A program made the translations under genes and the position numbers. A DNA stretch of 64,000 nucleotides from an uncultured bacterium (lineage in GTDB: Bacteria > Patescibacteriota > Minisyncoccia > Phycocordibacterales > PALSA-1337): contig OY969557.1 of assembly GCA_963701025.1 (NCBI GenBank), positions 234,405 to 298,404 of the forward strand. Direction: 5' to 3'. Below are positions 1 through 52,674 of this stretch, one piece after another; the first letter of the stretch is position 1, and each line of letters begins with the position of its first letter. The notes below the pieces were generated by a model, which was not told the DNA's origin, did no database searches, and saw only the letters and a list, made by a program, of their open reading frames with translations.

Positions 1-331
1 TGTAGGCTTCGATCTCGGTCGGCGTCGGGTCGCGGTTCTCCGGCGGGCGATCCTTGACGATGTTGGTGATATAGACTTGTTCGCGCTTGAGGCCGATGCC
101 TTCGATGAGCTCGGTCAGGAATTTTCCAGCCGCCCCGCAGAACGGCCGGCCCGTCTTGGCCTCATTCAGCCCCGGCGCTTCGCCCACGAACATGATCACG
201 GCGTCATGGCTGCCTTCCCCCACGACCGGATAATAACGATTGTTCGTCCGGTACTCGTAGAGCGGCGAAGCCGTGAAGGCGACCAGCTCGTCGCGGATGG
301 CTTTGAGGCGCTCGTGTTTGGACTGGTTCAT
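1..331 (-). CDS. Uracil-DNA glycosylase, family 4 (N-terminal part; gene runs off the left edge of the window)
   Basis: Reverse-strand translation starting at ATG (complement of 329-331) gives MNQSKHERLKAIRDELVAFTASPLYEYRTNNRYYPVVGEGSHDAVIMFVGEAPGLNEAKTGRPFCGAAGKFLTELIEGIGLKREQVYITNIVKDRPPENRDPT. The GEGxxxAxIMFVGEAPG ... PFxGxAG pattern is characteristic of family-4 UDGs. The partial gene was not listed in the ORF track because there is no stop inside the window. Confidence 0.8.
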   Translation of the reverse strand, partial: MNQSKHERLKAIRDELVAFTASPLYEYRTNNRYYPVVGEGSHDAVIMFVGEAPGLNEAKTGRPFCGAAGKFLTELIEGIGLKREQVYITNIVKDRPPENRDPTPTEIEAY

Positions 332-335
332 GCCT

Positions 336-824
336 TTATTTTATAAGCGCCAGATTCCCATTCAGGATGATCGGCTGCATGGCCAAAATCTCCTCTTTGT
401 AGCCTACACTCTCGTCGATCGGATGAAGTATGTAAATCGGCTTTCCGAGATGAAGGCCTATGCCCATTTCCATGAGCACCGCTCCGCCGATATATCCCGG
501 TTTGCCGTTCTTCTCATAATTCAGGACGAGGACGGCGTCGCCTTTTGCCACCTTATCGAAATGATGCTTCGTCAGGAAAGTTTTCCGCCCATAGGTATTG
601 GCATCTCCGAACCATGTTTTATAGGTCTCCACGCGGAAATCTCCCGTCCTCTCCATCTTTCCGGCAGTGAGCGGTGTTGATACTTTGAATCCCATCTTTT
701 TCAATGCGTTCCTGATCTCGAGAACCTGCTTGTAGAACGAGGCGCTCGAACAGATGACGATCGTCTTGACTTCCGCTCTACTCGATCTTTTTTTGCGGTC
801 TGATTTTTTCCGCGCGGTTCTCAT
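336..824 (-). CDS. Nucleoside 2-deoxyribosyltransferase-like (PF05014-like) protein, paralogue 1
   Basis: 162-aa ORF. Carries a flavodoxin-like N-terminus (IVICSSASF) and the C-terminal motif YIGGAVLMEMGIGLHLGKPIYIL. This matches the NDT catalytic-Glu region (D/GxGTxFExGxAxxxxKP). It sits 4 nt from the UDG gene. Confidence 0.55.
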   Translation of the reverse strand: MRTARKKSDRKKRSSRAEVKTIVICSSASFYKQVLEIRNALKKMGFKVSTPLTAGKMERTGDFRVETYKTWFGDANTYGRKTFLTKHHFDKVAKGDAVLVLNYEKNGKPGYIGGAVLMEMGIGLHLGKPIYILHPIDESVGYKEEILAMQPIILNGNLALIK

Positions 825-1258
825 ATGTATTTCTTTATATTTTTCAGATCACCATGAAGACAAATCGGGTCCATGGATTCAATCTCATCAATGTATGAGG
901 AATCTTTCGGAAGGTCATATAGGAGGAACATTTTTTTATTGTTCACATATGATTGGCCCATTTCTATCAAAACATTACCGCCGACATAATTCTTTTTGCC
1001 ATTCTTCTCGGCATTTACGAAAAGGATAACGTCGCTTTCGAGTATGTGTTGATAATGGACCTTGAGATAATTATTCTCGCGCTTGACGGCAGCATGCTCT
1101 CCATTAAACGCCCGCTTGACTATATCCAATTTCTCTCCTCGAACGAAAGCTTCATAATCTGGATGTATCCAGCCACCATATCCGAGCTGACGGAGCTTTT
1201 CAGAACAAGCTACCATCTCTTTCATAAAGTGGCTACTGCCAAGAACGTATATTTTCAT
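821..1258 (-). CDS. Nucleoside 2-deoxyribosyltransferase-like protein, paralogue 2 (tandem duplicate)
   Basis: 145-aa ORF starting MKIYVLGSS. The motif YVGGNVLIEMGQSYVNNKKMFLLYDL matches the same NDT-like pattern as the neighbour. It overlaps the upstream paralogue by 4 nt. Confidence 0.55.
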   Translation of the reverse strand: MKIYVLGSSHFMKEMVACSEKLRQLGYGGWIHPDYEAFVRGEKLDIVKRAFNGEHAAVKRENNYLKVHYQHILESDVILFVNAEKNGKKNYVGGNVLIEMGQSYVNNKKMFLLYDLPKDSSYIDEIESMDPICLHGDLKNIKKYI

Positions 1259-1298
1259 GGCTATTTCTTGATTAAAGTCTTCATATGTCTAAACAATT

Positions 1299-1535
1299 CT
1301 AGAAATTCCGGTGAATATACCATGGAAATGAATCTCTCTTTGTCGTCAAATCATGCCGAGCTTTCTTTTCGGCTACCGTCACATATTTCTGTTGCACATA
1401 GTTAAGATCAGAAGTCTTTCCTTCAGCAAGATCATGGAGCATGCACATCTTTATGACTTTTAGGACATCCACTCCTTTTTCCATGGAAGCCAGTGTATAG
1501 CCGATGATCGTCACACGATTGATGTGTTCTGCCAC
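1299..1535 (-). pseudogene. HD-domain phosphohydrolase (YfbR/5'-deoxynucleotidase-like) N-terminal fragment; truncated after 78 aa
   Basis: The sequence AEH...VLKVIKMCMLHDLAEGKTSDL matches the H...HD...E...D metal-binding motifs of YfbR-type HD hydrolases. The ORF stops after 78 aa, with only about 40 nt before the next gene. Full-length homologues are about 190 aa. Confidence 0.45.
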
Positions 1536-1675
1536 CGTTTGATTACCTGTACCAAGAAAATGAAAACCACTACAGGGGTTTTAGCCAAAACACCGCCTTC
1601 GTAGAGAAAATTCGCGATATTTTTTAGATCCCCATCTTTTTTTTTGACTTTAGCCATATTATATAGATTATATCA

Positions 1676-2521
1676 TCACTTCGCCTGCTCGATGATCATC
1701 TGCGCTTCGGTAAGAGCCCGCTCCTTGGCTTCGCCTTTGACGCCGATCTGGTCGAGGATGGTCGGATTGCCGATGATGTCGAGACAGACCATTGTTTCTC
1801 GGCCGATGAGATCTTTCTTCTGGTCGCGCGTGAGTGAAGCCATGGTCGTTATGGGGTGCAAGCCGTTCTGCTCGATGACATCGTGAAGATTGCCCTTGGT
1901 CGGATAGTTCCAACCGACCAGTTTGAGACCTTTGCATTCGCCATATTTGATCGCCTGATCGCTGAACTTGGTATTGGTCACCAGCCAGAACTCGTCGATC
2001 TTCCGCTTGACGCCGTTGTAGTCATACATGATGCCGCCCACGTCTTCCCTGCGAGCCTGGATATAAAGAGTCACTTTGCTGTCTGATTTCAAACCGAACT
2101 CATTGTGATATTTCGCCTCGACGAAGACGAGCTTGTCTTTCTTCCACGCCACCACGTCTATCTCATGCGGTATGCACGAACCCATGACTGTCTGGTCGGT
2201 CTTGGCCTCGAATCCCCAGAAGCGGAATATACGCGCCACGAAACGCTCGAATGGAAAACCGTCCGGCCCAAGTTCCATGATGGCCCGACGGATGGAATAT
2301 TTAACGGCTGTCGGGTGATGATGCCTTTTCAGAAGATCGAACGCGCGATGGTATATATCCGTCGTGGTCATGCCATCTTTCATGTCGCGTTCGACTTCAG
2401 TTGTGATCTCGCTTATGACCGTAGTCGGAGCGCCGACTTTTCGCAATGAAGCCTTGAGCTTATCTTCTTGGAACGGCTCACGCGTGCCGTCTGATTTGGT
2501 GATGATGAGCGAGCTGTTCAT
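1676..2521 (-). CDS. ATP-cone domain protein fused to an Mrr-like (PD-(D/E)xK) restriction-endonuclease domain
   Basis: The N-terminus IITKSDGTREPFQEDKLKASLRKVGAP resembles an NrdR-type ATP-cone. The C-terminal half has a G..FE...IDVVAWKKDKLVFVEAKYH core resembling Mrr_cat (D...D/E-x-K). Confidence 0.55.
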   Translation of the reverse strand: MNSSLIITKSDGTREPFQEDKLKASLRKVGAPTTVISEITTEVERDMKDGMTTTDIYHRAFDLLKRHHHPTAVKYSIRRAIMELGPDGFPFERFVARIFRFWGFEAKTDQTVMGSCIPHEIDVVAWKKDKLVFVEAKYHNEFGLKSDSKVTLYIQARREDVGGIMYDYNGVKRKIDEFWLVTNTKFSDQAIKYGECKGLKLVGWNYPTKGNLHDVIEQNGLHPITTMASLTRDQKKDLIGRETMVCLDIIGNPTILDQIGVKGEAKERALTEAQMIIEQAK

Positions 2522-2555: not shown

Positions 2556-3677
2556 TTACTCGATCACACCGCCACCTAAGCATTCTTCCCCATTGTATAT
2601 AACCAATGATTGGCCCGGAGTTAGTGTGTCTTGTGACTGATCGAATTCAATCGTCACTTGAATACTTTCTTCTCGATTGCCTCCGGTAGACACTCCTTTA
2701 ATAGACACCACTTTAGTTGACTGAAGTGCCTGCCGATAACGGCTCCTCGCCTGGAGCGGCCGACCGATTTCCGGTACACCGGATATCCAATTAACTCTCG
2801 AAATGCGCACTGTCTTCACAGCACCAGCAAGAATACCGCGAGAATCTTTATTCGACACTGTTACCGTATTTGCTCCCATATTTTTGGCGACGACATAATA
2901 CGCTTTATCTCCCGGCGTCTTATGAGCCTGGTCGATCTCAAAGCCGTGCCGTTCGCCTATGGTAAAGAAAAGCGTGCCGGGATGCGTACCGACGATGGCA
3001 CCTGCGTCATCCAAAACCTTACCTAGCTTGGCTGCCGGATTCCCTTCCGTATAGTGCGCCAGGAATTCCTTCACATCGACTTTGCCGATGAAGCAGAGGC
3101 CTTGACTGTCTTTCTTATCAGCATTCGGCAGTTTGAACTTCTGCGCCAACGCGCGTACCTCCGGCTTTGTCAGATCGCCGACGGGAAACATGACATGAGC
3201 AAGATCGTCCTGGGTCAAAGTCCAAAGAAAATATGACTGGTCTTTATTGTCATCCACGCCCTTGAAAAGCCTCCATACTCCTTTCTCCCTGCTTCTTGTT
3301 TCTTTGACCCGCGCATAATGCCCCGTGGCTATGCAGTCCGCGCCGCTCTCCTTCGCCCATTCCCCAAAAGCCCCGAACTTCACTTCCCTGTTGCACATGA
3401 CGTCGGGATTGGGCGTCCGGCCGGCGGCGTATTCGGCTATCATGTAGTCGATGACGCCTTCTTTATATTCCTTCTCGAGGTCGAGTGTGACGAACGGGAT
3501 ATCGAGATGGGCGGCCGCGCGCATGGCCTCGATCCGCTCTTCGCGCCAATTGCATTCTATCCAATCTGGCTGCCAGACCTTGATGAAAACACCGGTCACG
3601 TCATGGCCGGCGTGCTTCAAAACAGCCGCAGAGACCGATGAGTCCACACCTCCTGACATGCCGACGAAGATTTTCAT
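2556..3677 (-). CDS. mnmA: tRNA-specific 2-thiouridylase MnmA
   Basis: Starts MKIFVGMSGGVDSSVSAAVL with the SGGxDS PP-loop. Full-length conservation, 373 aa. Confidence 0.9.
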   Translation of the reverse strand: MKIFVGMSGGVDSSVSAAVLKHAGHDVTGVFIKVWQPDWIECNWREERIEAMRAAAHLDIPFVTLDLEKEYKEGVIDYMIAEYAAGRTPNPDVMCNREVKFGAFGEWAKESGADCIATGHYARVKETRSREKGVWRLFKGVDDNKDQSYFLWTLTQDDLAHVMFPVGDLTKPEVRALAQKFKLPNADKKDSQGLCFIGKVDVKEFLAHYTEGNPAAKLGKVLDDAGAIVGTHPGTLFFTIGERHGFEIDQAHKTPGDKAYYVVAKNMGANTVTVSNKDSRGILAGAVKTVRISRVNWISGVPEIGRPLQARSRYRQALQSTKVVSIKGVSTGGNREESIQVTIEFDQSQDTLTPGQSLVIYNGEECLGGGVIE

Positions 3678-4731: not shown

Positions 4732-5955
4732 TTACGTCGGCAGATTGGACGGCGCCTCGGCCTTCTTCGACGGCACGCGCGTCAGAGTCGGCGTGGCGGC
4801 CACGTTTCCTGGGAAATGAAAGATCGTAGCCAACTCTTCGGTGTTCAGAACGAACGGCTTATGGGAAAAGGGCGCGTAGAAATACGACCGGCGTTTGTAG
4901 GCCATGAGAGCCCTAACGGAATTATAATTCTTCCGCGCGTTGCTATAATCCTGCCACGGATAATCGAACTTCTCGTGCCATATCAGGCCGTTCGGCTTGA
5001 GTCCGTTTAAATGCTCGGTCGAGAACTGCTTCCAACAGCTGATCATGCCGCCCTTGCCGGTAGGATTGAAAAAGCCTTTTTCCGCCATGTATATACAGCG
5101 GATGCCGACGTCAAAGGCCTGTTTGGTTATGCTCCTCGCCAGGGCCGCCAAGAGATCCTTGTCCGCGTCGGAGAGCATGGGCATCTTCGAATAGCCGGTC
5201 TCTGGGTTCACTTCCGCCAGCTTGGTCTTGGCGTCGCGCATCATGATCTTGTTGATCAGGTCTTCCGCCTCGTCTTTCCAGGCGTCGGTCTTCTTCCACA
5301 GATGGCCATGTTTGCGCTGCTCTTTTTTGTGGGCGCGGATCATGATCTGTATCCAGGCCTGCTGATTCGGCCCGAGACTGCCCAGATATTCGAGCAGGGG
5401 CACGAGCGGATCGACTTTGAACTCCTCCTTCGGATCCTTGTCTAGGCCATAATCCATGTAGGTCTTTATAGGATAGGCGTCCTCCTTGGTCAGCTGGAGC
5501 TCAAAAGCTTCCAGTTCGAGCTTTGCCGGATCGAAGTGGACGCTCAAGGAATAATCTTCGCTCTCGTGTATCTCTATGCCGGGGAATTGAGCGTATAGGC
5601 TCGACTCGGTGAATATCCGGCTGCCCGCGCGCATCCAGATGTAGAATTTCACTTGGCCCTCGACTGATATCATCTCCAAAGAGAACCATACCCTCGTCTT
5701 GCCCAGCCAATATCTCGCGTACCACGTGCCTTCGCCGCTCGTCTGGTGGAGAGAGGTCAGGAATAGCTCCATGGCCAATGGCGACTTGAACATCTCCTTG
5801 GGCAGGCGTATCTCGAGTAGGACATACTTTTGAGCCATGAAAAATTTGGCCCGGATATAGCGCACCCACAGGTGCCAAAAGATATAGCCGAGGATGCAGA
5901 CCAGGACGACGGGCGACAGCAGGGCGAAATATTGTATTGCTCCCGACGGATACAT
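4732..5955 (-). CDS. Hypothetical membrane-anchored protein (N-terminal TM helix, about 360-aa cytoplasmic/extracytoplasmic domain)
   Basis: 407-aa ORF in a conserved operon context. The N-terminal hydrophobic segment is FALLSPVVLVCILGYIFWHLW. No family was recognised from memory. Confidence 0.5.
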   Translation of the reverse strand: MYPSGAIQYFALLSPVVLVCILGYIFWHLWVRYIRAKFFMAQKYVLLEIRLPKEMFKSPLAMELFLTSLHQTSGEGTWYARYWLGKTRVWFSLEMISVEGQVKFYIWMRAGSRIFTESSLYAQFPGIEIHESEDYSLSVHFDPAKLELEAFELQLTKEDAYPIKTYMDYGLDKDPKEEFKVDPLVPLLEYLGSLGPNQQAWIQIMIRAHKKEQRKHGHLWKKTDAWKDEAEDLINKIMMRDAKTKLAEVNPETGYSKMPMLSDADKDLLAALARSITKQAFDVGIRCIYMAEKGFFNPTGKGGMISCWKQFSTEHLNGLKPNGLIWHEKFDYPWQDYSNARKNYNSVRALMAYKRRSYFYAPFSHKPFVLNTEELATIFHFPGNVAATPTLTRVPSKKAEAPSNLPT

Positions 5956-5962
5956 GCGGAAA

Positions 5963-7000
5963 TTATACCACAGGGGTATATTTGCCGTCTTTGTCGTGCT
6001 TGAAATACTTTGGGTTCTGGAGATTGACGACGATGGTGTTCTCTTTGACGTAGCGCTCTTTGAGCACCTTGTCGACGATCTCTTCCTTGGTCAAAGGGCC
6101 GCTCTTCTCGAGGACGGCGCGGATGACGTCGCGGACGACGCCGGGGACATATCCCCATTCGGCCAGAGCGTAAAGGCCACGGCCTACCAGGACGAAGCGC
6201 TTGTCTTTGATGAGCTCGTTGTGGGTTGTGGCCACGTGGGCCTTCTTGTTGAACATGAGTGTGATCTGTTTGGCCACGTCGCGGAAATGAATGGGCGAGC
6301 CATGCTTGCGGATGACCAGAAAGGCGTAGTCGCGCACGCCTTTGGTCTTGATGTTGGACGAATGCGCCACGCCCCAGTCGCCGAGGGCGTTCTTGCCGAT
6401 CAGTTTCGAGAGGTTGAGCCAGCGCCTGACCACTTCCTGATTTTTATATTTCTCGGAGACGTCTTCGAGGTGCTGGAGGAACTTGTTGACCATCTCGGAT
6501 TCCGGCAGAAGGTCCTGGTTGTTCAAATTGGTGTAGAGCTTGCGCAGGGCGTCTTCCACCTTCTTGGCCAGCTCTTCGTTGACGTGGAGACGGCGTCGGA
6601 AGTCATCGTCTTCTTTGACTTTCTTGAACGGCTCGCCGATAACCAGAAGGAAATACATGTGGTTCTGCAGGCTCGCGTCTTTGGATATATGACCTAGGAA
6701 ATCGTCCTCCACCACGATGCCGCCCAGTGAATGCAGGAGCGTCTCCATTTCGGCGAAGACGGCTTTCTCCTGCTTGTATTCGTCCGACTTGCGGATGTTG
6801 CCGATGCCGTAGTTCTCGATCTGGCGCACGCGTTCACGGGTGATGCCGTATTTCTTGCCGATGGCGTCCAGAGTCATGCGCTTCACGTCCTTGCCCAATC
6901 CGTAGCGGAATATGAGCACTTCACGAGCGCGGTCCGGTAGCGACGACAGGAGCTTCTTGACGACGGTCTTGGGCTTGAAAGTGATGTGTGACGTGGCCAT
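5963..7000 (-). CDS. Sigma-70 region-4 (HTH) domain protein with extended C-terminal domain
   Basis: N-terminal LPDRAREVLIFRYGLGKDVKRMTLDAIGKKYGITRERVRQIE is a classic sigma70_r4 helix-turn-helix. The remaining roughly 270 aa were not recognised. Confidence 0.6.
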   Translation of the reverse strand: MATSHITFKPKTVVKKLLSSLPDRAREVLIFRYGLGKDVKRMTLDAIGKKYGITRERVRQIENYGIGNIRKSDEYKQEKAVFAEMETLLHSLGGIVVEDDFLGHISKDASLQNHMYFLLVIGEPFKKVKEDDDFRRRLHVNEELAKKVEDALRKLYTNLNNQDLLPESEMVNKFLQHLEDVSEKYKNQEVVRRWLNLSKLIGKNALGDWGVAHSSNIKTKGVRDYAFLVIRKHGSPIHFRDVAKQITLMFNKKAHVATTHNELIKDKRFVLVGRGLYALAEWGYVPGVVRDVIRAVLEKSGPLTKEEIVDKVLKERYVKENTIVVNLQNPKYFKHDKDGKYTPVV

Positions 7001-8147: not shown

Positions 8148-11100
8148 CTAATTCGTCACGATTGACAGGAGTTTTCCTTTTACGACGATAATCTTCCTAA
8201 TCTCCTTCCCCTCCAGCCATTTCTTGGCTTCCGGCAGGGCTAAGGCGGCGGATTTGATGGCTTCTTCCGGCGTATCCGTCGCGGCCGTGAAGGTTCCGCG
8301 CATTTTTCCATTGATCTGAACGGCTATGGTCGCTTGGCTATCGACTATGAGCTTAGGATCATATTCCGGCCATTCGGATGTGTGAATCGACTTCTTGTTA
8401 CCAAAAGATATCCACAGCTCTTCAGTCACGTGCGGAGCGAACGGGGCTAGGAGTTTCAGATACGATTCAAACTGCGAGCGGCTTATGGCGGGCGACTGAT
8501 CCGGGCCGGACGCGGTTTTTTCAAGTTCATTGAGAGCGATCATGAGCGAGCTTATGGCGGTGTTGAAGCGCATGGCGCCGATATCTTCGGTGACTTTCTT
8601 GATGGTCTTTTGAAGTACGCGATCTATTCTAGTGCCCGCGGGGAGAATATTCTCTTTCGGCTCCTTCTCCAAAGTGTCAACTTTTTTGACGCTTTCGTCT
8701 GGCGACATATGAGACATACTATCCTCCACACGCTCCGCAAGTTTCCACACTCTTTCAATGAATCTCCGCGGCCCGACCATGCTCTCCGTGCTCCAGGCTA
8801 TAGACTGGTCGAACGGTCCCATGAACATCTCATAGATGCGCAGTGTGTCCGCGCCGAATTGTGCCACGATATCGTCGGGATTTACCACATTGCCGAAGCG
8901 CTTGGACATCTTGCGACCGTCTTCGCCCATGATCAATCCGACTGACTGTAATTTCGTGAAAGGTTCGCTGGTTGAGACGACCCCGATATCATTCAAAAAC
9001 TTATGCCAAAAACGGGCGTATATGAGATGCCTCGTGGCGTGCTCCGCGCCGCCGACATACAGGTCTACAGGCGACCAGTATTTCTCTTTCTTCGGGTCTA
9101 CCAATGCTTTTCTATTATTCGGGTCCTCGTAACGGAGATAATACCAGCATGAGCCGGCCCATTGCGGCATGGTGTTCGTCTCGCGCCTTGCCGGACCCTT
9201 GCACTTTGGGCATTTGACGTTGACCCAGCTTTTTATGGCGGCCAAGGGCGACTCGCCCGTGCCTGTCGGCTCATACGACTTGACCTTTGGAAGCTCGACC
9301 GGCAGGTCTTTTTCCGGTACGGGCACGACGCCGCACTTCCCGCAGTGGATGAGCGGTATCGGCTCACCCCAATAGCGCTGGCGGGAGAAGACCCAGTCGC
9401 GAAGCTTGTATTTCATCACCCATCTGCCGCCGACAAAGGCGGTAATGTCTTTTTTGACGGAGTCGGAAGATTTATCAGAAAATGACCCGGAATTTATAGT
9501 AGTGCCTTCGCCGGTGAACGGCCGAGCGCTTCCATCATATATCTTATTAGTCCTATCATACTCAAGCTCCACCGCTCTCGTTACGCCGTTCTTGAGAAAT
9601 ATGATCCAATGATCATAGTCATGCATGTGGTTGTTCTCTTCCCACCATTTAATGATTTTATCAGGTTCCGACCAAACAAGAGTGTAATCTTCGTGTTTCT
9701 CTTGTTTAAGGGATTTAAGAGCATCATCTTGAAGTATAAGCAAGAGACATGTGGCTCGAGCTACGCGGTCGATCTTTTTCTTCGAATTATGATAATGGAC
9801 GAATGCGTCGTCGATCGTTTCCTTATACGAGAAATGGTGCAGGCCGCTCTCTTCCTCGACTTCGCGTAAAATACCCTCAACGAGATTCTCCTGAACACCA
9901 ACGCCGCCGCCGAAAAGATCATACTTCCCCTCGGGTAATCTTCCGAAAGCATATTTTTGCGTATTCGGATCGAATATAACCGCGCAGCCTCCATCTCTTC
10001 GTTCCTCATTGGGACGCTTTGTGCCTGTTTCCCAGGCGATGACCTGTCTTATCGGCAATTTGAATTTTTTGGCAAAAGCGAAATCTCTGTCGTCATGGGC
10101 GGGCACGGCCATGACGGCGCCCGTACCGTAGTCGGCCAGGACATAGTCGGCGATCCAGACGGGCACTTCTTCGTTATTGGCCGGATTGATCGCTTTGACG
10201 CCTTTCAATTCAACGCCGGTCTTTTCTTTATTCGCGTCGGTGCGTTCGATCTCGGTCTCGCTCTTTGCGCGGGCGACATAAGCTTCGATCTCAGCCTTAT
10301 TTTGGGTCTGCGGCAAAAGTACTTGAACCCACGGATGCTCCGGTGCCAACACCAGATAAGTCACGCCAAAGAGCGTGTCGGGACGAGTGGTGTAGACGGT
10401 CACCGACGGCGTAACGGCCTTGAGAATCTCCTTCTTATCCTCCGAAATAGCCAACCGGAAGTCGATCTCCGCCCCTTCGCTCCTGCCGATCCAGTTTCTT
10501 TGGGCCTCTTTGATGGACTCCGGCCAATCAAGGAGCGGCTTGGGCCAGCCCGCGGCCGGATCGCGCATGCGTTCGAGCCATATGGGGAGCTCAGAATTGA
10601 CCATCTTGCCGGGCACGAAATCCTCGGCCACGACCCACAGGATCTCGTTATGAGAAACCTCGCCTTTGGTCATCGATTCAGCGACGATGGGAACTCTGCC
10701 ATCGCTTTTGAGTTCGAAGTATGCAGCCTGGGCTATGGCCACGCGGTTCTCGCCCTTATGTTTGGTGTGATAGTGCGCTTCAGTCGGACCGCCCAATATC
10801 CTCTTGAATTCAAGATCCGTATAGCCTGTCTCCTCGCGGACCTCACGACGCGCGGTCTCTTCGGGTCTCTCGTCCCCCTCAATGCCTCCTATGACCACGG
10901 TATCCCAGCCGAACTTCTTATTGCGGATTATCAAATATTTCTGGGCCTTTGGATCGTAGACAATGGCGTGCGCTACATGACGCTTGACCAAAGGCGCGCC
11001 AGGCTGATGCGGATTGACTTTATCTATGAGCTTCGGCATGACATAGTCGTCCGCGTCGAGATCGCGCAACAAGCGATCCGCGTAATCGGTGATCTTGAGC

Positions 11101-11732
11101 ACCCATTGGCGCAGAGGCTTCTTTTCCACGGGCGTGCCGCAGCGCTCGCACCGGCCATTCTCGACGTCTTCGTTGGCCAGGACTGTCTTATCCGTCGGAC
11201 ACCAATTGACTGGCTCATACGATTCATATGCCAATCCTTTTTTGAAAAGCTGTAGGAATATCCATTGGGTCCACCGATAATAAGCCGGATCAGTCGTATT
11301 GACCTCGCGCGACCAGTCGTAGTCGAAGCCGAGGATCTCCAACTGCTCTTTGAACCGTTGGACATTCTTGGCCACGGCGACCATCGGATTGGTCTTCATC
11401 TTGATGGCGTAATTCTCCGCCGGCAGGCCGAATGCGTCGAAGCCCATGGGGTGCAGGACGTTCATACCCTGCATGCGCTTCATGCGGGAAATGACGTCGG
11501 TGGCGATGTAACCCTTGGGATGGCCGACATGTAGGCCGTCGCCGGACGGATACGGGAACATGTCGAGAATATAAAATTTGTCTTTACTTCCTCCCTTCTC
11601 CTTGCTTCCTGCTTCTTCTGTTCTATATATTTTATCGGCCGCCCACTTCTTCTGCCATTTCTTCTCGATCTTGGCTGGATTATACGGGGCCAGTCTTTGT
11701 GAGGTAGTCTTTTTCGCCATGGATGAAATCAT
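8148..11732 (-). CDS. leuS: Leucyl-tRNA synthetase carrying two in-frame NUDIX-box insertions (1194 aa)
   Basis: Carries HIGH (HVGHPKGY), KMSKS (KMSKRFGN), the CP1 editing motif TTRPDTLFG and VMAVPAHDDRDF. It is about 330 aa longer than typical bacterial LeuS. Extra segments lie at about aa 232-398 and 566-772. Each contains a canonical NUDIX box: GGIEGDERPEETARREVREETGY (10818-10886) and GGGVGVQENLVEGILREVEEESGL (9840-9908). Confidence 0.9.
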   Translation of the reverse strand: MISSMAKKTTSQRLAPYNPAKIEKKWQKKWAADKIYRTEEAGSKEKGGSKDKFYILDMFPYPSGDGLHVGHPKGYIATDVISRMKRMQGMNVLHPMGFDAFGLPAENYAIKMKTNPMVAVAKNVQRFKEQLEILGFDYDWSREVNTTDPAYYRWTQWIFLQLFKKGLAYESYEPVNWCPTDKTVLANEDVENGRCERCGTPVEKKPLRQWVLKITDYADRLLRDLDADDYVMPKLIDKVNPHQPGAPLVKRHVAHAIVYDPKAQKYLIIRNKKFGWDTVVIGGIEGDERPEETARREVREETGYTDLEFKRILGGPTEAHYHTKHKGENRVAIAQAAYFELKSDGRVPIVAESMTKGEVSHNEILWVVAEDFVPGKMVNSELPIWLERMRDPAAGWPKPLLDWPESIKEAQRNWIGRSEGAEIDFRLAISEDKKEILKAVTPSVTVYTTRPDTLFGVTYLVLAPEHPWVQVLLPQTQNKAEIEAYVARAKSETEIERTDANKEKTGVELKGVKAINPANNEEVPVWIADYVLADYGTGAVMAVPAHDDRDFAFAKKFKLPIRQVIAWETGTKRPNEERRDGGCAVIFDPNTQKYAFGRLPEGKYDLFGGGVGVQENLVEGILREVEEESGLHHFSYKETIDDAFVHYHNSKKKIDRVARATCLLLILQDDALKSLKQEKHEDYTLVWSEPDKIIKWWEENNHMHDYDHWIIFLKNGVTRAVELEYDRTNKIYDGSARPFTGEGTTINSGSFSDKSSDSVKKDITAFVGGRWVMKYKLRDWVFSRQRYWGEPIPLIHCGKCGVVPVPEKDLPVELPKVKSYEPTGTGESPLAAIKSWVNVKCPKCKGPARRETNTMPQWAGSCWYYLRYEDPNNRKALVDPKKEKYWSPVDLYVGGAEHATRHLIYARFWHKFLNDIGVVSTSEPFTKLQSVGLIMGEDGRKMSKRFGNVVNPDDIVAQFGADTLRIYEMFMGPFDQSIAWSTESMVGPRRFIERVWKLAERVEDSMSHMSPDESVKKVDTLEKEPKENILPAGTRIDRVLQKTIKKVTEDIGAMRFNTAISSLMIALNELEKTASGPDQSPAISRSQFESYLKLLAPFAPHVTEELWISFGNKKSIHTSEWPEYDPKLIVDSQATIAVQINGKMRGTFTAATDTPEEAIKSAALALPEAKKWLEGKEIRKIIVVKGKLLSIVTN

Positions 11733-16339: not shown

Positions 16340-16413
16340 TGCACCCTAGAGGGCTCGAACCTCTGGCCTCGCCCGTGTGAAGGGCGCGCTCTAGCCAACT
16401 GAGCTAAGGGTGC
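16340..16413 (-). tRNA. tRNA-Val (anticodon CAC)
   Basis: Folded manually. Acceptor GCACCCT/AGGGTGC, anticodon stem CGCCC/GGGCG, loop TTCACAC, T-loop TTCGAGC. No encoded CCA. Confidence 0.75.
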
Positions 16414-16459
16414 GAGGAAAATTCCTAATTTCTAATTGATCTACTTTCTAATCTCACTG

Positions 16460-16530
16460 TCGGGCTGCCGGGAATCGAACCCGGACCGCATCCACCCCAT
16501 GGATGTATACTACCACTATACTACAGCCCG
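16460..16530 (-). tRNA. tRNA-Pro (anticodon GGG)
   Basis: Acceptor CGGGCTG/CAGCCCG, anticodon stem CATCC/GGATG, loop ATGGGGT, T-loop TTCGATT. No encoded CCA. Confidence 0.75.
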
Positions 16531-16630
16531 AGCCGACAGTTTACGGCATTTTTGAGAATTACTCAATCCATGTTACAGTTTCGGGCGTTACGGGCCCGTA
16601 GCTGTTTTGGTAGGTATCGCCCGGAACATT

Positions 16631-16703
16631 GGGCCCGTAGCTCATCTGGTAGAGCGCCGCTTTTGCAAAGCGGAGGCAAGCGGTTCGAGTCCGCTCGGGT
16701 CCA
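16631..16703 (+). tRNA. tRNA-Ala (anticodon TGC)
   Basis: GGGCCCGTAGCTCATCTGGTAGAGCGCCGCTTTTGCAAAGCGGAGGCAAGCGGTTCGAGTCCGCTCGGGTCCA. G3:U70 Ala identity pair; anticodon loop TTTGCAA. Confidence 0.85.
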
Positions 16704-16782
16704 CTTGATTTTTCTAGAAGTGCTATAATGGGCGCTTGGTCGAATGCCTTATCAGCATTATAAGCATTAAACATAAACGACC

Positions 16783-16860
16783 ATGGCAACTTGCCCTTCT
16801 TGTCCTCATGAGGCTCACACGGGCGCATGTCCCGTAACGGGATGCACCTGCGGCAAATAG
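16783..16860 (+). CDS. Candidate micro-ORF encoding a 25-aa cysteine-rich peptide (MATCPSCPHEAHTGACPVTGCTCGK)
   Basis: ATG...TAG open frame with 6 Cys in 25 residues, immediately followed by a perfect hairpin terminator. No obvious Shine-Dalgarno, so coding status is uncertain. Confidence 0.2.
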   Translation: MATCPSCPHEAHTGACPVTGCTCGK

Positions 16861-16880
16861 ATCGTGAGACCGCCTCAAAC

Positions 16881-16910
16881 AAAATCATCCGCCAGCTGGC
16901 GGATGATTTT
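16881..16910. terminator. Bidirectional rho-independent terminator (AAAATCATCCGCC-AGCT-GGCGGATGATTTT)
   Basis: Perfect 13-bp inverted repeat flanked by an A-run and a T-run. It lies between the micro-ORF/tRNA-Ala (plus) and cspA (minus). Confidence 0.8.
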
Positions 16911-16935
16911 GCGTTACCATTAGGAACTCTAGAGA

Positions 16936-17136
16936 CTATGCGCGCTGTACGTTGACGGCGTTCGGTCCCTTCGGAGAATCTTCGGTCTCAAAGGTGACGG
17001 CATCGCCTTCGTGGAGTTCAGCGAACTGAACGCCGACGAGGGAGTTGCTGTGGAAGAACAAGTCCTTGCCTCCAGCCTCCGTGGCGATGAAACCGAAACC
17101 TTTGTCCGTGAGCTTCTTGATTGTGCCCTTATTCAT
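16936..17136 (-). CDS. cspA: Cold-shock protein (CspA family)
   Basis: MNKGTIKKLTDKGFGFIATEAGGKDLFFHSNSL with the RNP1/RNP2 motifs KGFGFI and LFFH. Confidence 0.9.
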   Translation of the reverse strand: MNKGTIKKLTDKGFGFIATEAGGKDLFFHSNSLVGVQFAELHEGDAVTFETEDSPKGPNAVNVQRA

Positions 17137-17271
17137 TGGTGTATAGGTTGATTGCTAAAGTACAAATATATTAGGTTTAAGAAATTCGACTTTTTCGCAA
17201 CTTAACTCTTTGTGCTTATAAGGCTAGCATAGCTGTCTAGGACTTGTCAAGGGGTCGAAAATGTTGCCTTA

Positions 17272-17665
17272 TCACAGCGATAAGGCTTCTCTTTGAACAA
17301 TCGTGCGATGATTAGGAAAAAGGTCGGGGAGCCGCGCGGCCTCATCAAGGCCGAACACCTTTGTCTCTTCCATCTCATCGCCTTCTTTCTTCAATCCTTT
17401 CAATGACAGAAGCTCTATGCGGAAAAAGGTGAGTGTATGTCCCCCCCCTGTCTTGTTGCTCGATGACCCGGAGACCATCCTGATCTATTTCTATACCAAG
17501 CTCTTCATATATTTCTCGAGCCGCACATTCTTCAGGTGTCTCATTTCCTTCACTCCTGCCGCCGGGTAATTTCCAATATCTAGGAGCCGGCTTCTTCGGG
17601 TCACGCACGAATGGAACGCCTTCCGGAGCAACGATGAGAACTGCGACTGCATGCAATGAATTCAT
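17272..17665 (-). pseudogene. NUDIX hydrolase interrupted by a frameshift at a C8/G8 homopolymer
   Basis: The 96-aa ORF (17375-17665) carries the NUDIX box GGRSEGNETPEECAAREIYEELGI. The C-terminal continuation (...EMEETKVFGLDEAARLPDLFPNHRTIV) is in another frame (17272-17478). The frames switch at the C8 run at 17441-17448. Confidence 0.7.
17441..17448. repeat. Homopolymeric C8 (G8 on the coding strand) tract inside the NUDIX gene
   Basis: Direct reading of the sequence cccccccc at 17441-17448, at the point where the reading frame changes. Confidence 0.9.
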
Positions 17666-17696
17666 GTTTTATTTATAGCATAAATTATTATTCCTG

Positions 17697-17767
17697 TGGA
17701 CCTGGGGGGAATCGGACCCCCGCCTCGGCAATGCGAATGCCGCGTAATGCCACTTTACTACAGGCCC
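17697..17767 (-). tRNA. tRNA-Ala (anticodon CGC)
   Basis: GGGCCTGTAGTAAAGTGGCATTACGCGGCATTCGCATTGCCGAGGCGGGGGTCCGATTCCCCCCAGGTCCA. G3:U70; loop TTCGCAT. Confidence 0.7.
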
Positions 17768-17890
17768 TAGCGAGAAGCGACATGAATATATCATATTCAT
17801 GGCCTTCGAGCGACGGGCCTCGATGAGCGAAGCGAGTACTGGCCCATGCGCTCCGCCGGCTGGCGGAGGGAGTTGCGCGATCTTTCCTTG

Positions 17891-17961
17891 TCGGGGTGCC
17901 GGGAATCGAACCCGGACCTCACACTCCCGAAGCGTGTATACTACCACTATACTACACCCCG
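17891..17961 (-). tRNA. tRNA-Pro (anticodon CGG)
   Basis: CGGGGTG acceptor; anticodon stem CACGC/GTGTG; loop TTCGGGA; T-loop TTCGATT. Confidence 0.75.
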
Positions 17962-17963
17962 TG

Positions 17964-18034
17964 TGGACCTATGGGGAATCGAACCCCAGCCTCGCCCATG
18001 CCATGGGCGCATTCGACCACTGAACTATAGGCCC
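17964..18034 (-). tRNA. tRNA-Ala (anticodon GGC)
   Basis: GGGCCTATAGTTCAGTGGTCGAATGCGCCCATGGCATGGGCG...TTCGATTCCCCATAGGTCCA. G3:U70; loop ATGGCAT. It lies 2 nt from tRNA-Pro(CGG). Confidence 0.7.
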
Positions 18035-30614: not shown

Positions 30615-32258
30615 TTACACCTTTCCGAACGGTTCCAACTCTACTATAAACGTCGAACCCTTCCCTTCTCCGGCCGATTCGGCACGGATGACGCCATGAT
30701 GAGCCTCTATCATCTCCTTAGCAACATACAAGCCGAGACCGGTGCCTTTTATATTGGTCTTATTGGCGTTGCCGGCGCGGCTCCACTTCTGGAAGAGATG
30801 CGGCAATATCTCCGGAGCGATGCCGATACCGGTGTCTTTGAGCGTGAGGACGAATTTGTGCCTCGGCCTATCGAACGAGAGCGACACGGCTACCGAGCCG
30901 GACGGCGTGTATTTCATGCTGTTGTCGATGAGATTGCCGATGACTTGCTTTAGCTTGTCCCGATCGGCCGTGATGCGCCAATCGATGCCGCCGTCGCTGG
31001 CGGTGAAGGAGAATGCCAATCCCGACTTTTCTATGTTCGGCTTGAGCTCGGCCAGCGTGTCTTCCACCAGAGCTTTCAGATCTACCGTGTCGAAGACATA
31101 TTTCATCGAGCCAAGCTCGATCCTGGTGATGTTCAGATAGTCGTCCACGATGGAAGTGAGCGTGCTGGCGGACTCGTATATGCGCGATACCCCGTCGTTG
31201 GCCTCCTTGGGCAGTGTGCCCATGTCGCCCTCCAATATCATCGAAGCATAGCCTTTCATGGCCGTAAGCGGTGCCCGCAATTGATGAGTGGCGAATGAGA
31301 CGAACTCCGACTTCTGCCGGTCGAGCTCGGTCAGGCGGACATTGGCCTTCTCCAAGTCGGTGGCAAGCTTCTCGATCTTTTCGCGCTGGGAAACTTCTTT
31401 TATGACGCTGCGGATGAGAAGGATGCCGAAGATAATTAACAGAAGAAGCATAATGGCGTTGATCAATTGATCCTGTAAATTATCCGCCACAAGCGTTCGC
31501 AGTAGCACGAATATCCAAAGAGCAAATACGACCAACTCCGTAGCAATAATCTTCGCATTGAACAAGCGGTGTTTAAGCACTGCAATAGCAGTAAAACCAA
31601 TAAAGAAAACTACGGTTGGTGGGCCAAAGATATTTAAGGAACTTAACCCCCCAAGCGGCAGGATAAGATTGATTAAGACAGAAAGGAATATAGTTAAGAA
31701 GGCCCCTATCATCATGAAGAGTGCTTGAGATTTTTTCGGATTTTTGTATTTCCTATACACATCAAAAAGATAGAAGAAGGAAAATCCGAAAGCTATGATG
31801 AGATACAAAAACATTAGGTAATACAAATTACCTGGAACATAATCTACGCCCCAAGGTTGAATCGATATAGAAATGATATTCAGCTGAGTCTGGCTTAGAA
31901 AAATAATTATAACTGCGACAATAATTGAAAGCTTCGATAATACTCTATAGCGACGGATAAATACTTTATCATTGGTATAATAAAGCTCAGCTATGAGACT
32001 ATTGAAAAAGATCGGTAAGAAGGCTGGCCAGATAATTGCTAATCTGCTAAAAAAGAGAGCTTGACCGGCATAAACAGATAGATCGGCCAGCATATTGCTT
32101 GCGACCCAGAAAGACATTGTCGCTCCCAAAAGGAAAAAGTATCTATTTATGGAGTTACGATAATCCTGGAATAACACAAAAATACTCAATAGGATAGTTA
32201 GAAAGAATGTCAATATTTCCAATATGATGTTCAATCCCATGTTAGCGTAATGAAGCAA
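30615..32258 (-). CDS. Sensor histidine kinase with N-terminal polytopic membrane domain (paralogue of 14659-16311)
   Basis: About 280 aa of TM helices, then the H-box SFATHQLRAPLTAMKGYASMILEG and a HATPase_c domain (GTGLGLYVAKEMIEAHHG). No adjacent response regulator. Confidence 0.8.
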   Translation of the reverse strand: MLHYANMGLNIILEILTFFLTILLSIFVLFQDYRNSINRYFFLLGATMSFWVASNMLADLSVYAGQALFFSRLAIIWPAFLPIFFNSLIAELYYTNDKVFIRRYRVLSKLSIIVAVIIIFLSQTQLNIISISIQPWGVDYVPGNLYYLMFLYLIIAFGFSFFYLFDVYRKYKNPKKSQALFMMIGAFLTIFLSVLINLILPLGGLSSLNIFGPPTVVFFIGFTAIAVLKHRLFNAKIIATELVVFALWIFVLLRTLVADNLQDQLINAIMLLLLIIFGILLIRSVIKEVSQREKIEKLATDLEKANVRLTELDRQKSEFVSFATHQLRAPLTAMKGYASMILEGDMGTLPKEANDGVSRIYESASTLTSIVDDYLNITRIELGSMKYVFDTVDLKALVEDTLAELKPNIEKSGLAFSFTASDGGIDWRITADRDKLKQVIGNLIDNSMKYTPSGSVAVSLSFDRPRHKFVLTLKDTGIGIAPEILPHLFQKWSRAGNANKTNIKGTGLGLYVAKEMIEAHHGVIRAESAGEGKGSTFIVELEPFGKV

Positions 32259-32922: not shown

Positions 32923-32923
32923 G

Positions 32924-33733: not shown

Positions 33734-33773
33734 TATATCAAATTTGAAGCAAAAAACATTGAGCTCTTTTTTA

Positions 33774-45991: not shown

Positions 45992-46186
45992 GGCTCGACA
46001 TTGACACACTGGCCATGACCATGCATATAATAAGATATCGATATAGTGCAAGCGTGCTTATCGATTCGCATTAGCGAGTGTAGAGATGAAATATTCTCTC
46101 GCAAACAGGTAACGGTCGATCTCCGTATCAGTAATCTGGAGTTGTACCTGCAACGCTTACTTATTAGTTAAGCGTTTTTAATTTAT

Positions 46187-47326: not shown

Positions 47327-47337
47327 ACACTATCCAT

Positions 47338-47371
47338 CAAGAAGCCCCTTCGGGGGCTTCTTGATTTGTAT
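47338..47371. terminator. Bidirectional rho-independent terminator (CAAGAAGCCCC-TTCG-GGGGCTTCTTG + ATTTGTAT)
   Basis: Perfect 11-bp stem with a tetraloop, between two convergent genes. Confidence 0.75.
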
Positions 47372-47373
47372 AA

Positions 47374-51104: not shown

Positions 51105-51116
51105 TAAAATACATAC

Positions 51117-52640: not shown

Positions 52641-52674
52641 GAAGGCCGTGTCCTGACCATTAGACGATAGGGCC
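52600..52674 (-). tRNA. tRNA-Glu (anticodon CTC), 3' CCA encoded
   Basis: GGCCCTATCGTCTAATGGTCAGGACACGGCCTTCTCAAGGCTGGAATCGGGGTTCGACTCCCCGTAGGGTCACCA. D-arm GTCTAATGGTCAGGAC is Glu-like; loop TTCTCAA. Confidence 0.7.

What the first reader, a model, noticed from the sequence alone, without database searches (positions are those of the whole stretch)
1..2521. Compact operon of nucleotide-centric genes: UDG, two tandem NDT-like paralogues, truncated HD hydrolase, ATP-cone fused to Mrr-like nuclease
Five minus-strand genes are packed with gaps or overlaps of 40 nt or less. They are uracil-DNA glycosylase family 4, two paralogous nucleoside 2-deoxyribosyltransferase-like proteins, a YfbR-like HD 5'-deoxynucleotidase fragment and an ATP-cone protein fused to a PD-(D/E)xK Mrr-type nuclease domain. 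NDT and HD deoxynucleotidase together suggest a deoxynucleoside salvage and remodelling module, as expected in organisms lacking de novo nucleotide synthesis. NDT-like and ATP-cone/nuclease domains also recur in nucleotide-sensing conflict systems, so this could be an allosterically regulated nuclease defence or DNA-quality module.
Basis: partly seen in the sequence, partly recalled or inferred. Interest (0 to 1): 0.6.

Follow-up and report, generated by a model that had tools for sequence, protein, structure and literature searches.

The report
Nucleotide house-cleaning cassette beside ATP-cone nuclease
This stretch of a tiny symbiotic bacterium's genome (Patescibacteria) is not one dedicated operon: a swappable set of nucleotide clean-up genes, including an undescribed enzyme pair and one dead gene, is wedged between a conserved ATP-sensing nuclease and a uracil-repair gene.

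Summary
UDG family 4 is cut by the window edge. ATP-cone + Mrr_cat + AF1548-like C-domain nuclease ("ACM") is confirmed. The two paralogues (F1 336-824, F2 821-1258) have an NDT/DNPH1-type fold but fail Pfam's threshold.

The "HD" gene is dead. It holds codons 1-~102 of a 206-codon HD_3 gene, has a frameshift in a C-run, and is fused to the tail of a NUDIX gene. A contig with 100% identical flanks carries that NUDIX gene intact.

The five genes are not co-conserved. ACM is a fixed core gene in a long string (LeuRS…MnmA-ACM-[cassette]-UDG-PepF-AlaRS). The cassette is empty in 20 of 46 loci; elsewhere it holds NUDIX, MazG-like, HD, HAD or F2-F1. F1 occurs across Patescibacteria and DPANN, mostly without ACM nearby. 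It is enriched next to NUDIX genes and is repeatedly fused to NUDIX, MazG, Maf and NTPase_I-T.

Best reading: F2-F1 is a heteromeric nucleotide N-glycosidase acting after NTP pyrophosphatases. The defence reading is unsupported. Interest is moderate: an unannotated family with a testable function.

The parts
1..331 (-). 5' part (110 codons) of a family-4 uracil-DNA glycosylase; the gene runs off the window start
   Evidence: Pfam UDG 3.7e-19 and TIGR00758 2.1e-34. GEAPG motif seen in the translation. A full-length orthologue in L003 passes TIGR00758.
336..824 (-). F1: 162-aa NDT/DNPH1-fold protein from a broad, unannotated Patescibacteria/DPANN family
   Evidence: AF2 pLDDT 92. Foldseek PDB top hits are YtoQ, T. 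brucei NDT and DNPH1. BFVD N-deoxyribosyltransferase hit at 5.6e-7. Residues C25 S27 F30 H88 N102 K105 Y111 G113 E119 E145 are near-invariant across the F1 copies (C25 is Leu in F2). 630 homologues, none with an NDT-related Pfam domain on record.
821..1258 (-). F2: 145-aa paralogue of F1; its stop overlaps the F1 start (ATGA); likely a heteromer partner
   Evidence: hhalign 99.7%. AF2 pLDDT 96. Foldseek top hits are BcmB, C. thermalis NDT and DNPH1. It always abuts F1 with a gap of -17 to +17 nt on the same strand. Fused F2-F1 polypeptide P0363.
1261..1348 (-). Relic 3' tail (28 codons plus stop) of a NUDIX gene
   Evidence: 100% identical to the end of the intact 180-aa NUDIX gene of contig L010.
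1349..1657 (-). Relic 5' half of an HD_3 (YfbR-like) gene, with a frameshift at the C-run 1575-1578
   Evidence: Pfam HD_3 5.5e-11 on the 78-aa piece. tblastn with full-length 206-aa orthologues: residues 2-22 in one frame and 23-102 in another, with nothing beyond. Restoring C5 gives the reading TPCSG against the orthologues' TPRSG.
1676..2521 (-). ACM: ATP-cone + PD-(D/E)xK (Mrr_cat) + AF1548-like C-terminal domain, 281 aa; a core gene of this lineage
   Evidence: Pfam. PDB 1Y88 3.5e-27. Invariant K9 G12 F17 K21 and E120 D122 E135 K137. 1414 homologues, nearly all about 281 aa.
2556..3677 (-). MnmA (tRNA 2-thiouridylase), the conserved upstream neighbour of ACM; context, not part of the module
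   Evidence: Pfam 7.5e-75. MnmA lies just upstream of ACM (-1 to -3 genes; -1 in 44) in 66 of 80 loci.

Best explanation
The five genes are not one dedicated system. They are the end of a long, co-directional housekeeping string that is conserved in this Paceibacteria-type lineage: LeuRS, sigma-r4/HARE-HTH, DUF8128, MltG, MnmA, ACM, [variable cassette], UDG4, PepF, AlaRS.

The slot between ACM and UDG4 is a gain/loss and recombination hot spot for nucleotide 'house-cleaning' genes. In this window the slot holds the F2-F1 pair plus a dead mosaic, namely the front half of an HD_3 gene joined to the tail of a NUDIX gene.

Proposed mechanism (inferred):
- An NTP pyrophosphatase converts a non-canonical or surplus (d)NTP to the (d)NMP. 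In sister genomes this is a neighbouring NUDIX or MazG-like gene; elsewhere NUDIX, MazG, Maf or NTPase_I-T domains are fused to the F domain.
- The F2-F1 heteromer then cleaves the base from the sugar phosphate. It has an NDT/DNPH1-type fold, an invariant Glu as nucleophile and an invariant His in the acid position. The bad nucleotide cannot be re-phosphorylated, and the base and pentose phosphate are recycled.
- UDG4 removes the uracil that still reaches DNA.

ACM is a separate core gene. It is probably a nuclease whose activity is set by ATP or dATP binding to its ATP-cone, feeding nucleic-acid turnover and nucleotide supply.

Shown: the gene anatomy, the folds, the paralogy, the relic, the variable cassette, the fusions and the neighbour enrichment. 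Inferred: substrate, heteromer formation, and ATP control of the nuclease.
For: Synteny and variable cassette. Of 46 ACM loci with at least 2.5 kb downstream, 20 go straight to UDG, 15 have a cassette and 9 lack UDG. Cassette content: NUDIX 6, F1 5, unk178 5, F2 4, HAD 4, MazG-like 3.

Relic: L010 is 100% identical to window 294-1348 and to 1675-1704, but carries an intact NUDIX gene where the window has the HD piece. The HD piece covers residues 2-102 of 206 in two frames.

Fold: Foldseek top hits for both models are NDT-superfamily enzymes, including the NMP N-glycosidases DNPH1, BcmB and MilB. BFVD gives 5.6e-7. Family member P0376 passes PF05014 at 43.3 > 28.8 bits.

Link to NTP pyrophosphatases: 16 of the 20 long family members scanned carry a pyrophosphatase domain: 7 NTPase_I-T, 5 NUDIX, 2 Maf, 2 MazG. 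A NUDIX gene lies within two genes of F1 in 30 of 80 loci. That is 32 of 285 genes (11%) at those positions, against 11 of 607 (1.8%) at positions 3-7.

Heteromer: F2 always abuts F1 on the same strand, with overlapping or near-touching stop and start codons. Single-chain F2-F1 fusions exist in the same order (P0363). DNPH1 and NDTs build their active sites across a dimer (PMC10603095).

Catalytic Glu: it is invariant in both families. The only local hhalign match to DNPH1 places it on nucleophile E104.

ACM as a metabolic nuclease: orthologues with the same three domains in Pontibacter and Criblamydia head an operon with a beta-CASP RNase, an archaeal-type thymidine/AMP phosphorylase and a PRPP-synthase homologue.
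Against: - No enzymology exists for F1, F2 or ACM.
- The Foldseek matches are modest: E about 1e-3 to 5e-4 against PDB, TM 0.45-0.57.
- Sequence profiles do not reach any solved NDT or DNPH1 structure.
- The Glu pairing with DNPH1 is not statistically significant (E 0.02-0.14).
- By spacing, the DNPH1/NDT general-acid Asp is replaced by His. The triad Tyr is present only in F2.
- HD and HAD phosphatases also occur in the cassette. They would yield nucleosides, the substrate of true NDTs.
- In this window the pyrophosphatase slot is dead, so the proposed two-step path would need an enzyme encoded elsewhere.
- The two plasmid operons that support ACM's role may represent a single transferred unit.
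- ACM-UDG adjacency could be inherited gene order only.
Confidence: 0.55

Rival explanations
1. F1 and F2 are genuine nucleoside 2'-deoxyribosyltransferases. They swap bases between deoxynucleosides, and together with 5'-nucleotidases (HD, HAD) they form a deoxynucleoside salvage module.
For: NDT-type fold with true NDTs among the best hits. An invariant Glu. HD_3 and HAD phosphatases recur in the same cassette. By established knowledge of the group, not tested here, Patescibacteria generally lack de novo nucleotide synthesis.
Against: The fusions are to NTP pyrophosphatases, which yield NMPs. None of the 20 scanned is fused to a phosphatase or a kinase. NMP N-glycosidases (DNPH1, BcmB, MilB) match as well as NDTs do. 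By spacing the NDT acid Asp position is His, and F1 lacks the triad Tyr. The HD gene here is dead. PF05014 is not reached by the window proteins.
Confidence: 0.2
2. The locus is a nucleotide-sensing defence or conflict system: an ATP-cone-gated nuclease effector working with NDT-like nucleotide-processing enzymes.
For: NDT-like, SLOG, TIR and PD-(D/E)xK domains do recur in defence systems (general knowledge). Weak PADLOC similarity of the nuclease core to CARF-PDDEXK/Can1 (E 0.004-0.03).
Against: ACM is a core gene of nearly constant length (about 281 aa), 52-86% identical across relatives, in a fixed housekeeping position after MnmA. PADLOC gives no significant hit for any of the proteins. 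There is no phage homologue. F1/F2 and ACM are not co-conserved. The neighbours are tRNA synthetases, MnmA and MltG, not mobile elements.
Confidence: 0.03
3. ACM works with UDG4 in uracil or abasic-site repair. The PD-(D/E)xK + HhH-like protein would nick DNA after uracil removal, gated by the dNTP/ATP pool.
For: UDG lies downstream of ACM in 35 of 46 ACM-centred loci and is the immediate neighbour in 20. The AF1548-like C-terminal domain is conserved.
Against: The whole ~15-kb string is syntenic in this clade, so adjacency may only be inherited order. Nine of 46 loci have ACM without a neighbouring UDG. Distant orthologues sit with an RNase, a phosphorylase and a PRPP-synthase homologue, not with repair genes.
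Confidence: 0.1
4. Null reading: the clustering is only compact-genome synteny. F1 and F2 bind some non-nucleotide ligand, and the apparent theme is coincidence.
For: These genomes pack unrelated genes tightly and co-directionally. F1 neighbourhoods outside the clade are heterogeneous.
Against: The NUDIX enrichment is restricted to the two genes on either side of F1. Independent fusions to four different NTP-pyrophosphatase folds are hard to explain by chance.
Confidence: 0.1

Closest known systems
DNPH1/Rcl (2'-deoxynucleoside 5'-phosphate N-hydrolase; nucleotide-pool sanitiser)
   Same: Same Rossmann-like NDT-superfamily fold. Similar size (~145-160 aa). Glu on the helix after beta-4 in a G-x-x-x-E-x-G context, paired with E104 in the only local alignment. 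A dimer-built active site fits the F2-F1 pairing (PMC10603095). A sanitising role fits the fusions to house-cleaning NTPases.
   Different: No significant sequence similarity. By spacing, His sits at the D80 position. Tyr24 is kept only in F2. There is a longer N-x-E-K-N-G loop with an invariant Lys and no GSIRGG phosphate loop. Two paralogous subunits replace a homodimer. The substrate is unknown.
Nucleoside 2'-deoxyribosyltransferases (PF05014) and CMP/hmCMP N-glycosidases BcmB and MilB
   Same: They are among the best fold matches, with BcmB ranked first for F2. Weak PF05014 hits occur in 13 of 58 F1 members, and one relative passes the threshold.
   Different: The window proteins are below Pfam's threshold. 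Profile searches do not reach the solved structures. The active-site acid differs.
House-cleaning NTP pyrophosphatases (NUDIX, MazG, Maf, YjjX/NTPase_I-T)
   Same: They are the recurrent fusion partners and neighbours of the F domain. They fill the same cassette between ACM and UDG.
   Different: In this window the pyrophosphatase position is occupied only by a dead HD/NUDIX mosaic.
AF1548 (PDB 1Y88), predicted restriction-endonuclease-fold protein of Archaeoglobus fulgidus
   Same: Residues 93-277 of ACM align at 3.5e-27, including the predicted catalytic D…E-x-K and the C-terminal domain (PMC1821046).
   Different: The solved 199-residue chain has no room for an ATP-cone: the alignment starts at its residue 22. 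AF1548 is itself uncharacterised.
ATP-cone regulators (class I/III ribonucleotide reductases, NrdR)
   Same: Same Pfam ATP-cone domain at the N-terminus, above threshold, with conserved K9, G12, F17 and K21.
   Different: Here the domain is attached to a nuclease rather than to a reductase or a zinc-ribbon repressor. The Arg after the conserved Lys in the K-R-D-G motif, as recalled from RNR/NrdR sequences and not tested here, is Ser in this family. Ligand and effect are untested.

Membership tests
Nucleoside 2-deoxyribosyltransferase family (Pfam PF05014) | Score at or above Pfam's gathering threshold (28.8 bits) | tested here: not met
   F1 scores 14.9 bits (E 0.029) and F2 has no hit. In per-member scans 13 of 58 F1 members (best E 8e-5) and 4 of 53 F2 members (best E 0.09) give weak hits. 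One distant relative, P0376, passes at 43.3 bits.
NDT/DNPH1 superfamily (fold level) | Rossmann-like NDT fold | tested here: met
   AF2 models have pLDDT 92 and 96. The top Foldseek PDB hits are almost all NDT-superfamily members: YtoQ, NDTs, DNPH1, BcmB, MilB, at E 4.5e-4 to 1e-2 and TM 0.45-0.57. BFVD N-deoxyribosyltransferase hit at 5.6e-7.
NDT/DNPH1 superfamily (catalysis) | Catalytic Glu nucleophile on the helix after beta-4 | tested here: inconclusive
   E119 (F1) and E99 (F2) are invariant in 107 sequences. The best local hhalign match puts them on DNPH1 E104, but at E 0.02-0.14. No structural superposition output was available.
NDT/DNPH1 superfamily (catalysis) | General-acid Asp (DNPH1 D80) and triad Tyr (Y24) | tested here: not met
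   By spacing (8 residues before the Asp that starts beta-4) the position is an invariant His, H88. Tyr is present in F2 (17 of 18 adjacent copies, 19 of 21 in all), while F1 has Val, Thr or Ala. DNPH1 residues are from PMC10603095. The equivalence is inferred, not superposed.
NDT/DNPH1 superfamily (catalysis) | Transferase or N-glycosidase activity | not testable with these tools
   Needs enzyme assays.
Uracil-DNA glycosylase family 4 (TIGR00758) | Profile score above the cutoff (125.3 bits), plus the GEAPG motif | tested here: met
   The window fragment (110 of ~205 aa) scores 118.7 bits and carries GEAPG. The full-length orthologue in L003 scores 186.9 bits.
Uracil-DNA glycosylase family 4 | Four-Cys 4Fe-4S cluster, typical of characterised family-4 enzymes (from established knowledge) | tested here: not met
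   The full-length orthologue (L014) has a single Cys, and the window fragment has one Cys.
HD_3 / YfbR-like 5'-deoxynucleotidase | Intact full-length ORF with the complete H…HD…D metal site | tested here: not met
   There is an HD_3 hit (5.5e-11) on a 78-aa piece. Only residues 2-102 of 206 are present, in two frames, followed by a NUDIX tail. The C-terminal half, which carries the last Asp ligand, is absent.
ATP-cone (PF03477) | Score above the gathering threshold | tested here: met
   37.1 bits > 25.8, residues 6-77. The motif residues are conserved across the family.
Mrr_cat / AF1548-like PD-(D/E)xK nuclease | Profile hit plus the D…E-x-K catalytic residues | tested here: met
   Mrr_cat 25.7 bits > 21. 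1Y88 at 3.5e-27. E120, D122, E135 and K137 are invariant. AF1548-like_C passes in homologue P0023. Nuclease activity itself was not tested.
Known anti-phage defence systems (PADLOC-DB) | Significant match of any component to a defence-system model | tested here: not met
   No hits for F1, F2 or the HD piece. ACM gives only E 0.004-0.03 partial matches to the nuclease cores of CARF-PDDEXK and Can1.

The most novel reading that the evidence does not exclude
F1, with its accessory paralogue F2, is a Patescibacteria/DPANN-specific nucleotide N-glycosidase. It forms the second step of a 'destroy and recycle' route for non-canonical or scavenged nucleotides, coupled to whichever NTP pyrophosphatase is at hand.

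The neighbouring core gene ACM is an energy-charge- or dATP-gated nuclease that supplies nucleotides from nucleic acids. Together they would make directly testable how ultra-small symbionts that lack de novo synthesis police and feed their nucleotide pools.
Probability: 0.3. Interest if true: 0.65.

Novelty: new member of a known kind. Interest (0 to 1): 0.45.

Why it matters
Patescibacteria and DPANN archaea depend on imported nucleotides, so they need ways to keep damaged or foreign nucleotides out of their DNA and to recycle sugar phosphate and bases.

F1 is a widespread family that no database annotates. A profile search found about 1,600 cluster representatives, and its active-site-like residues are invariant. 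Fusions tie it to four different NTP-pyrophosphatase folds (NUDIX, MazG, Maf, NTPase_I-T). That makes a concrete, cheap biochemical hypothesis.

ACM is a near-universal core gene of this lineage that joins a nucleotide sensor to a nuclease, and it has never been studied.

The locus also shows cassette replacement caught in the act: one lineage carries a dead HD/NUDIX mosaic where a contig with 100% identical flanks carries an intact NUDIX gene.

Tried and rejected
- Sequence searches of F1 and F2, as single sequences and as profiles, against all PDB chains found no NDT-family hit. Only chance matches appeared, such as synaptotagmin.
- NCBIfam gives nothing for F1 or F2.
- Global hhalign against human DNPH1 failed. 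The local mode gave only the short Glu-helix match.
- Literature searches for YtoQ, for AF1548/ATP-cone nucleases, for ATP-cone + Mrr and for AMP phosphorylase + ATP-cone found no functional study.
- Look-up of the window's own ACM protein returned no contig. The source contig's flanks, and a second copy of the HD-relic allele, therefore could not be examined.
- The cassette families unk178 and unk169 were tested for kinship with F1/F2. None was found, and they have no Pfam hit.
- The defence-system reading was rejected for the reasons given under rival explanations.
- Plus-strand ORFs in 1-2521 were treated as antisense shadows of conserved minus-strand genes. No Rfam family lies in 1-2521.


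Full report
**What is in the sequence**

Window 1-2521 carries five co-directional minus-strand features.
- A uracil-DNA glycosylase starts at 331 and runs off the window edge. Its translation carries GEAPG. Pfam UDG scores 3.7e-19 and TIGR00758 scores 118.7 bits on this 110-codon fragment. A full-length orthologue passes the cutoff at 186.9 > 125.3.
- F1 lies at 336-824 (162 aa).
- F2 lies at 821-1258 (145 aa). Its stop overlaps the F1 start in ATGA.
- Two short HD-like ORFs lie at 1299-1535 and 1511-1657.
- A 281-aa protein (ACM) lies at 1676-2521.

Spacings are 4, -4, 2, 18 and 34 nt, so the compactness claim is correct. The string continues in the same direction through MnmA, MltG/YceG, a DUF8128 protein and a sigma-70 region 4/HARE-HTH protein. 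The only promoter-like site before that last gene is at 7041-7013. No terminator-like site lies between the five genes; the scan's single such site (2993-2976) falls inside the MnmA gene. The five genes are therefore the end of a much longer unit, not a self-contained operon.

**Domain calls**

ACM is confirmed.
- ATP-cone scores 37.1 bits and Mrr_cat 25.7 bits, both above threshold.
- Residues 93-277 align to the structural-genomics protein AF1548 (1Y88) at 3.5e-27.
- Homologues also hit the Pfam AF1548-like_C domain.
- The nuclease residues E120, D122, E135 and K137, and the ATP-cone residues K9, G12, F17 and K21, are invariant across the family. They match the triad predicted for AF1548 (PMC1821046).

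F1 and F2 are true paralogues: BLASTP E 4e-19 and hhalign 99.7%.
- They fail Pfam's NDT threshold. F1 scores 14.9 against 28.8 bits and F2 has no hit.
- They have no NCBIfam hit and no PDB sequence hit.
- The NDT call is rescued at fold level. The AlphaFold models are confident, with pLDDT 92 and 96.
- Their best Foldseek matches are almost exclusively NDT-superfamily enzymes: YtoQ, trypanosomatid and cyanobacterial NDTs, human DNPH1, and the CMP N-glycosidases BcmB and MilB.
- A viral N-deoxyribosyltransferase model matches at 5.6e-7.
- One distant family member passes PF05014 outright (P0376, 43.3 bits).

**The HD 'gene' is a relic**

Full-length 206-aa orthologues sit at the same position in other loci (L003, L131). 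They align to the window only over residues 2-22 in one frame and 23-102 in another.
- The frame break is at the C-run 1575-1578. A fifth C would restore the reading TPCSG, against TPRSG in the orthologues.
- Downstream of about 1349 the sequence is not HD at all. Window 1261-1348 is 100% identical to the last 28 codons of an intact 180-aa NUDIX gene on contig L010.
- The flanks of L010 are also 100% identical to the window, covering the ACM end and the whole F2-F1 pair.

The window therefore carries a mosaic: the front half of an HD gene joined to the tail of a NUDIX gene. It lacks the C-terminal half of the HD domain. The frameshift could be a homopolymer sequencing error. The truncation and the junction cannot be. 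Whether both alleles coexist in one population needs read mapping.

**Co-conservation**

ACM has about 1,400 homologues, nearly all about 281 aa and 58-83% identical among the best 120, all labelled Patescibacteria.

The backbone in ACM-centred loci is LeuRS, sigma/HARE-HTH, DUF8128, YceG, MnmA, ACM, [slot], UDG, PepF, AlaRS. Among 46 loci with at least 2.5 kb downstream of ACM:
- 20 run straight into UDG;
- 9 have no UDG;
- 15 carry a cassette.

Cassette content is NUDIX (6), F1 (5), an unknown family unk178 (5), F2 (4), HAD (4), MazG-like (3) and unk169 (2). HD follows ACM in L003, L131 and L168.

The reverse test used a scan of GTDB species genomes with the F1 profile. It found F1 across Paceibacteria, Saccharimonadia, Uhr-, Magasanik-, Gottesman-, Wildermuth- and Nealsonbacteria and Kazan, and in DPANN archaea. 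ACM lies within 8 kb in only 7 of 73 of these loci.

**What F1 and F2 are linked to**

F1 is usually solo (64 loci). F2 is never found without an adjacent F1 away from a contig edge, apart from one ambiguous archaeal sequence. The pair is always on one strand, with gaps of -17 to +17 nt. Single polypeptides that join an F2-like and an F1-like domain in the same order exist (P0363; also P0376 and P0364). This argues for a heteromer, in line with the dimer-built active sites of DNPH1 (PMC10603095).

A profile search of 1.8 billion cluster representatives found 1,632 members. Of the 20 longest scanned, 16 are fused to NTP pyrophosphatases: 7 NTPase_I-T (YjjX-like), 5 NUDIX, 2 Maf and 2 MazG.

In genomes, NUDIX genes make up 11% of the genes within two positions of F1 and 1.8% at positions 3-7. 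Thirty of 80 loci have one within two genes. MazG-like and NTPase_I-T genes also occur as neighbours.

**Mechanism proposed**

These partners all turn (d)NTPs into (d)NMPs. Several members of the NDT superfamily (DNPH1, MilB, BcmB) are NMP N-glycosidases. The best-supported reading is a two-step sanitation route: pyrophosphatase first, then cleavage of the base from the pentose phosphate by F1 or by the F2-F1 heteromer.

Ten residues (C25, S27, F30, H88, N102, K105, Y111, G113, E119, E145) are near-invariant across the F1 copies, and nine of them, all but C25, are also kept in F2.
- The only local profile match to DNPH1 puts E119 (F1) and E99 (F2) on nucleophile E104. This is not significant on its own.
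- By spacing, H88 occupies the position of acid D80.
- The triad Tyr is kept in F2 only.

These last equivalences are inferences. True deoxyribosyl transfer remains a live rival, because HD and HAD phosphatases share the cassette.

**ACM**

ACM is a core gene, not a defence gene. It has a fixed position and a nearly constant length, no significant PADLOC hit and no phage homologue.

Two distant orthologues with the same three domains, 39-41% identical, were found in Pontibacter (Bacteroidota) and Criblamydia (Chlamydiota). Each heads an operon with a beta-CASP RNase carrying the RNA-specificity domain, an archaeal-type thymidine/AMP phosphorylase and a PRPP-synthase homologue. This points to nucleic-acid breakdown feeding nucleotide and pentose-phosphate metabolism, with the ATP-cone as the likely sensor. 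A role beside UDG4 in repair is not excluded. No published study of this protein was found.

**Verdict**

The novelty lies in F1/F2, an unannotated NDT-superfamily branch of ultra-small symbionts with a clear and testable link to house-cleaning pyrophosphatases. To a lesser degree it lies in the unstudied ATP-cone nuclease. Both are new members of known kinds, and interest is moderate.

Noticed in passing
window 8148-11732 (-): The leucyl-tRNA synthetase (1194 aa) carries an inserted NUDIX domain (residues ~253-376; two stretches). The same insertion is on record for the LeuRS of relatives L001, L004 and L005.
   Followed up: partly
L004:6883-7419, L001:7965-8474 and 13 further ORFs in related loci (not in the window): Two mutually homologous ~170-180-aa proteins (unk178, unk169; motif SGPxSTGGxG) recur in the same ACM-UDG cassette. 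They have no Pfam hit and no detectable kinship with F1/F2.
   Followed up: partly
L171:1972-6597 (Pontibacter plasmid) and L172:5995-10602 (Criblamydia plasmid): A conserved four-gene operon occurs in two distant phyla: ATP-cone nuclease, beta-CASP RNase, archaeal-type thymidine/AMP phosphorylase, PRPP-synthase homologue. In Criblamydia it sits beside phosphoketolase, glycogen phosphorylase and acetate kinase.
   Followed up: partly
window 1-331 and the orthologues L014:1547-2182 and L003:8219-8833: The family-4 UDG of this lineage has a single cysteine. It cannot hold the four-Cys iron-sulfur cluster typical of characterised family-4 enzymes.
   Followed up: no
L010 (Logan ERR11718638 contig, 1587 bp) versus window 294-1704: Two alleles have 100% identical flanks. 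One carries an intact NUDIX gene and the other the HD/NUDIX mosaic. The junction shows short shared bases (GAT…GACGAC).
   Followed up: partly
window 4732-5955 (-) and 5963-7000 (-): A DUF8128 protein (no Pfam hit on the window copy itself) and a sigma-70 region 4 + HARE-HTH protein form a conserved pair upstream of MltG-MnmA-ACM in all relatives examined.
   Followed up: no
window 16340-18034 and 52603-52674: Seven tRNA genes, six of them in a cluster at 16.3-18.0 kb on both strands.
   Followed up: no
window 32001-34000 and 46001-52000: Segments of clearly lower G+C (0.41-0.45, against about 0.52 elsewhere). These could be acquired islands.
   Followed up: no
L005:5111-5953 and 11 metagenome loci (position -1 of ACM): An extra ~250-280-aa gene, weakly similar to leucine carboxyl methyltransferase, is inserted between MnmA and ACM in some relatives.
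   Followed up: no
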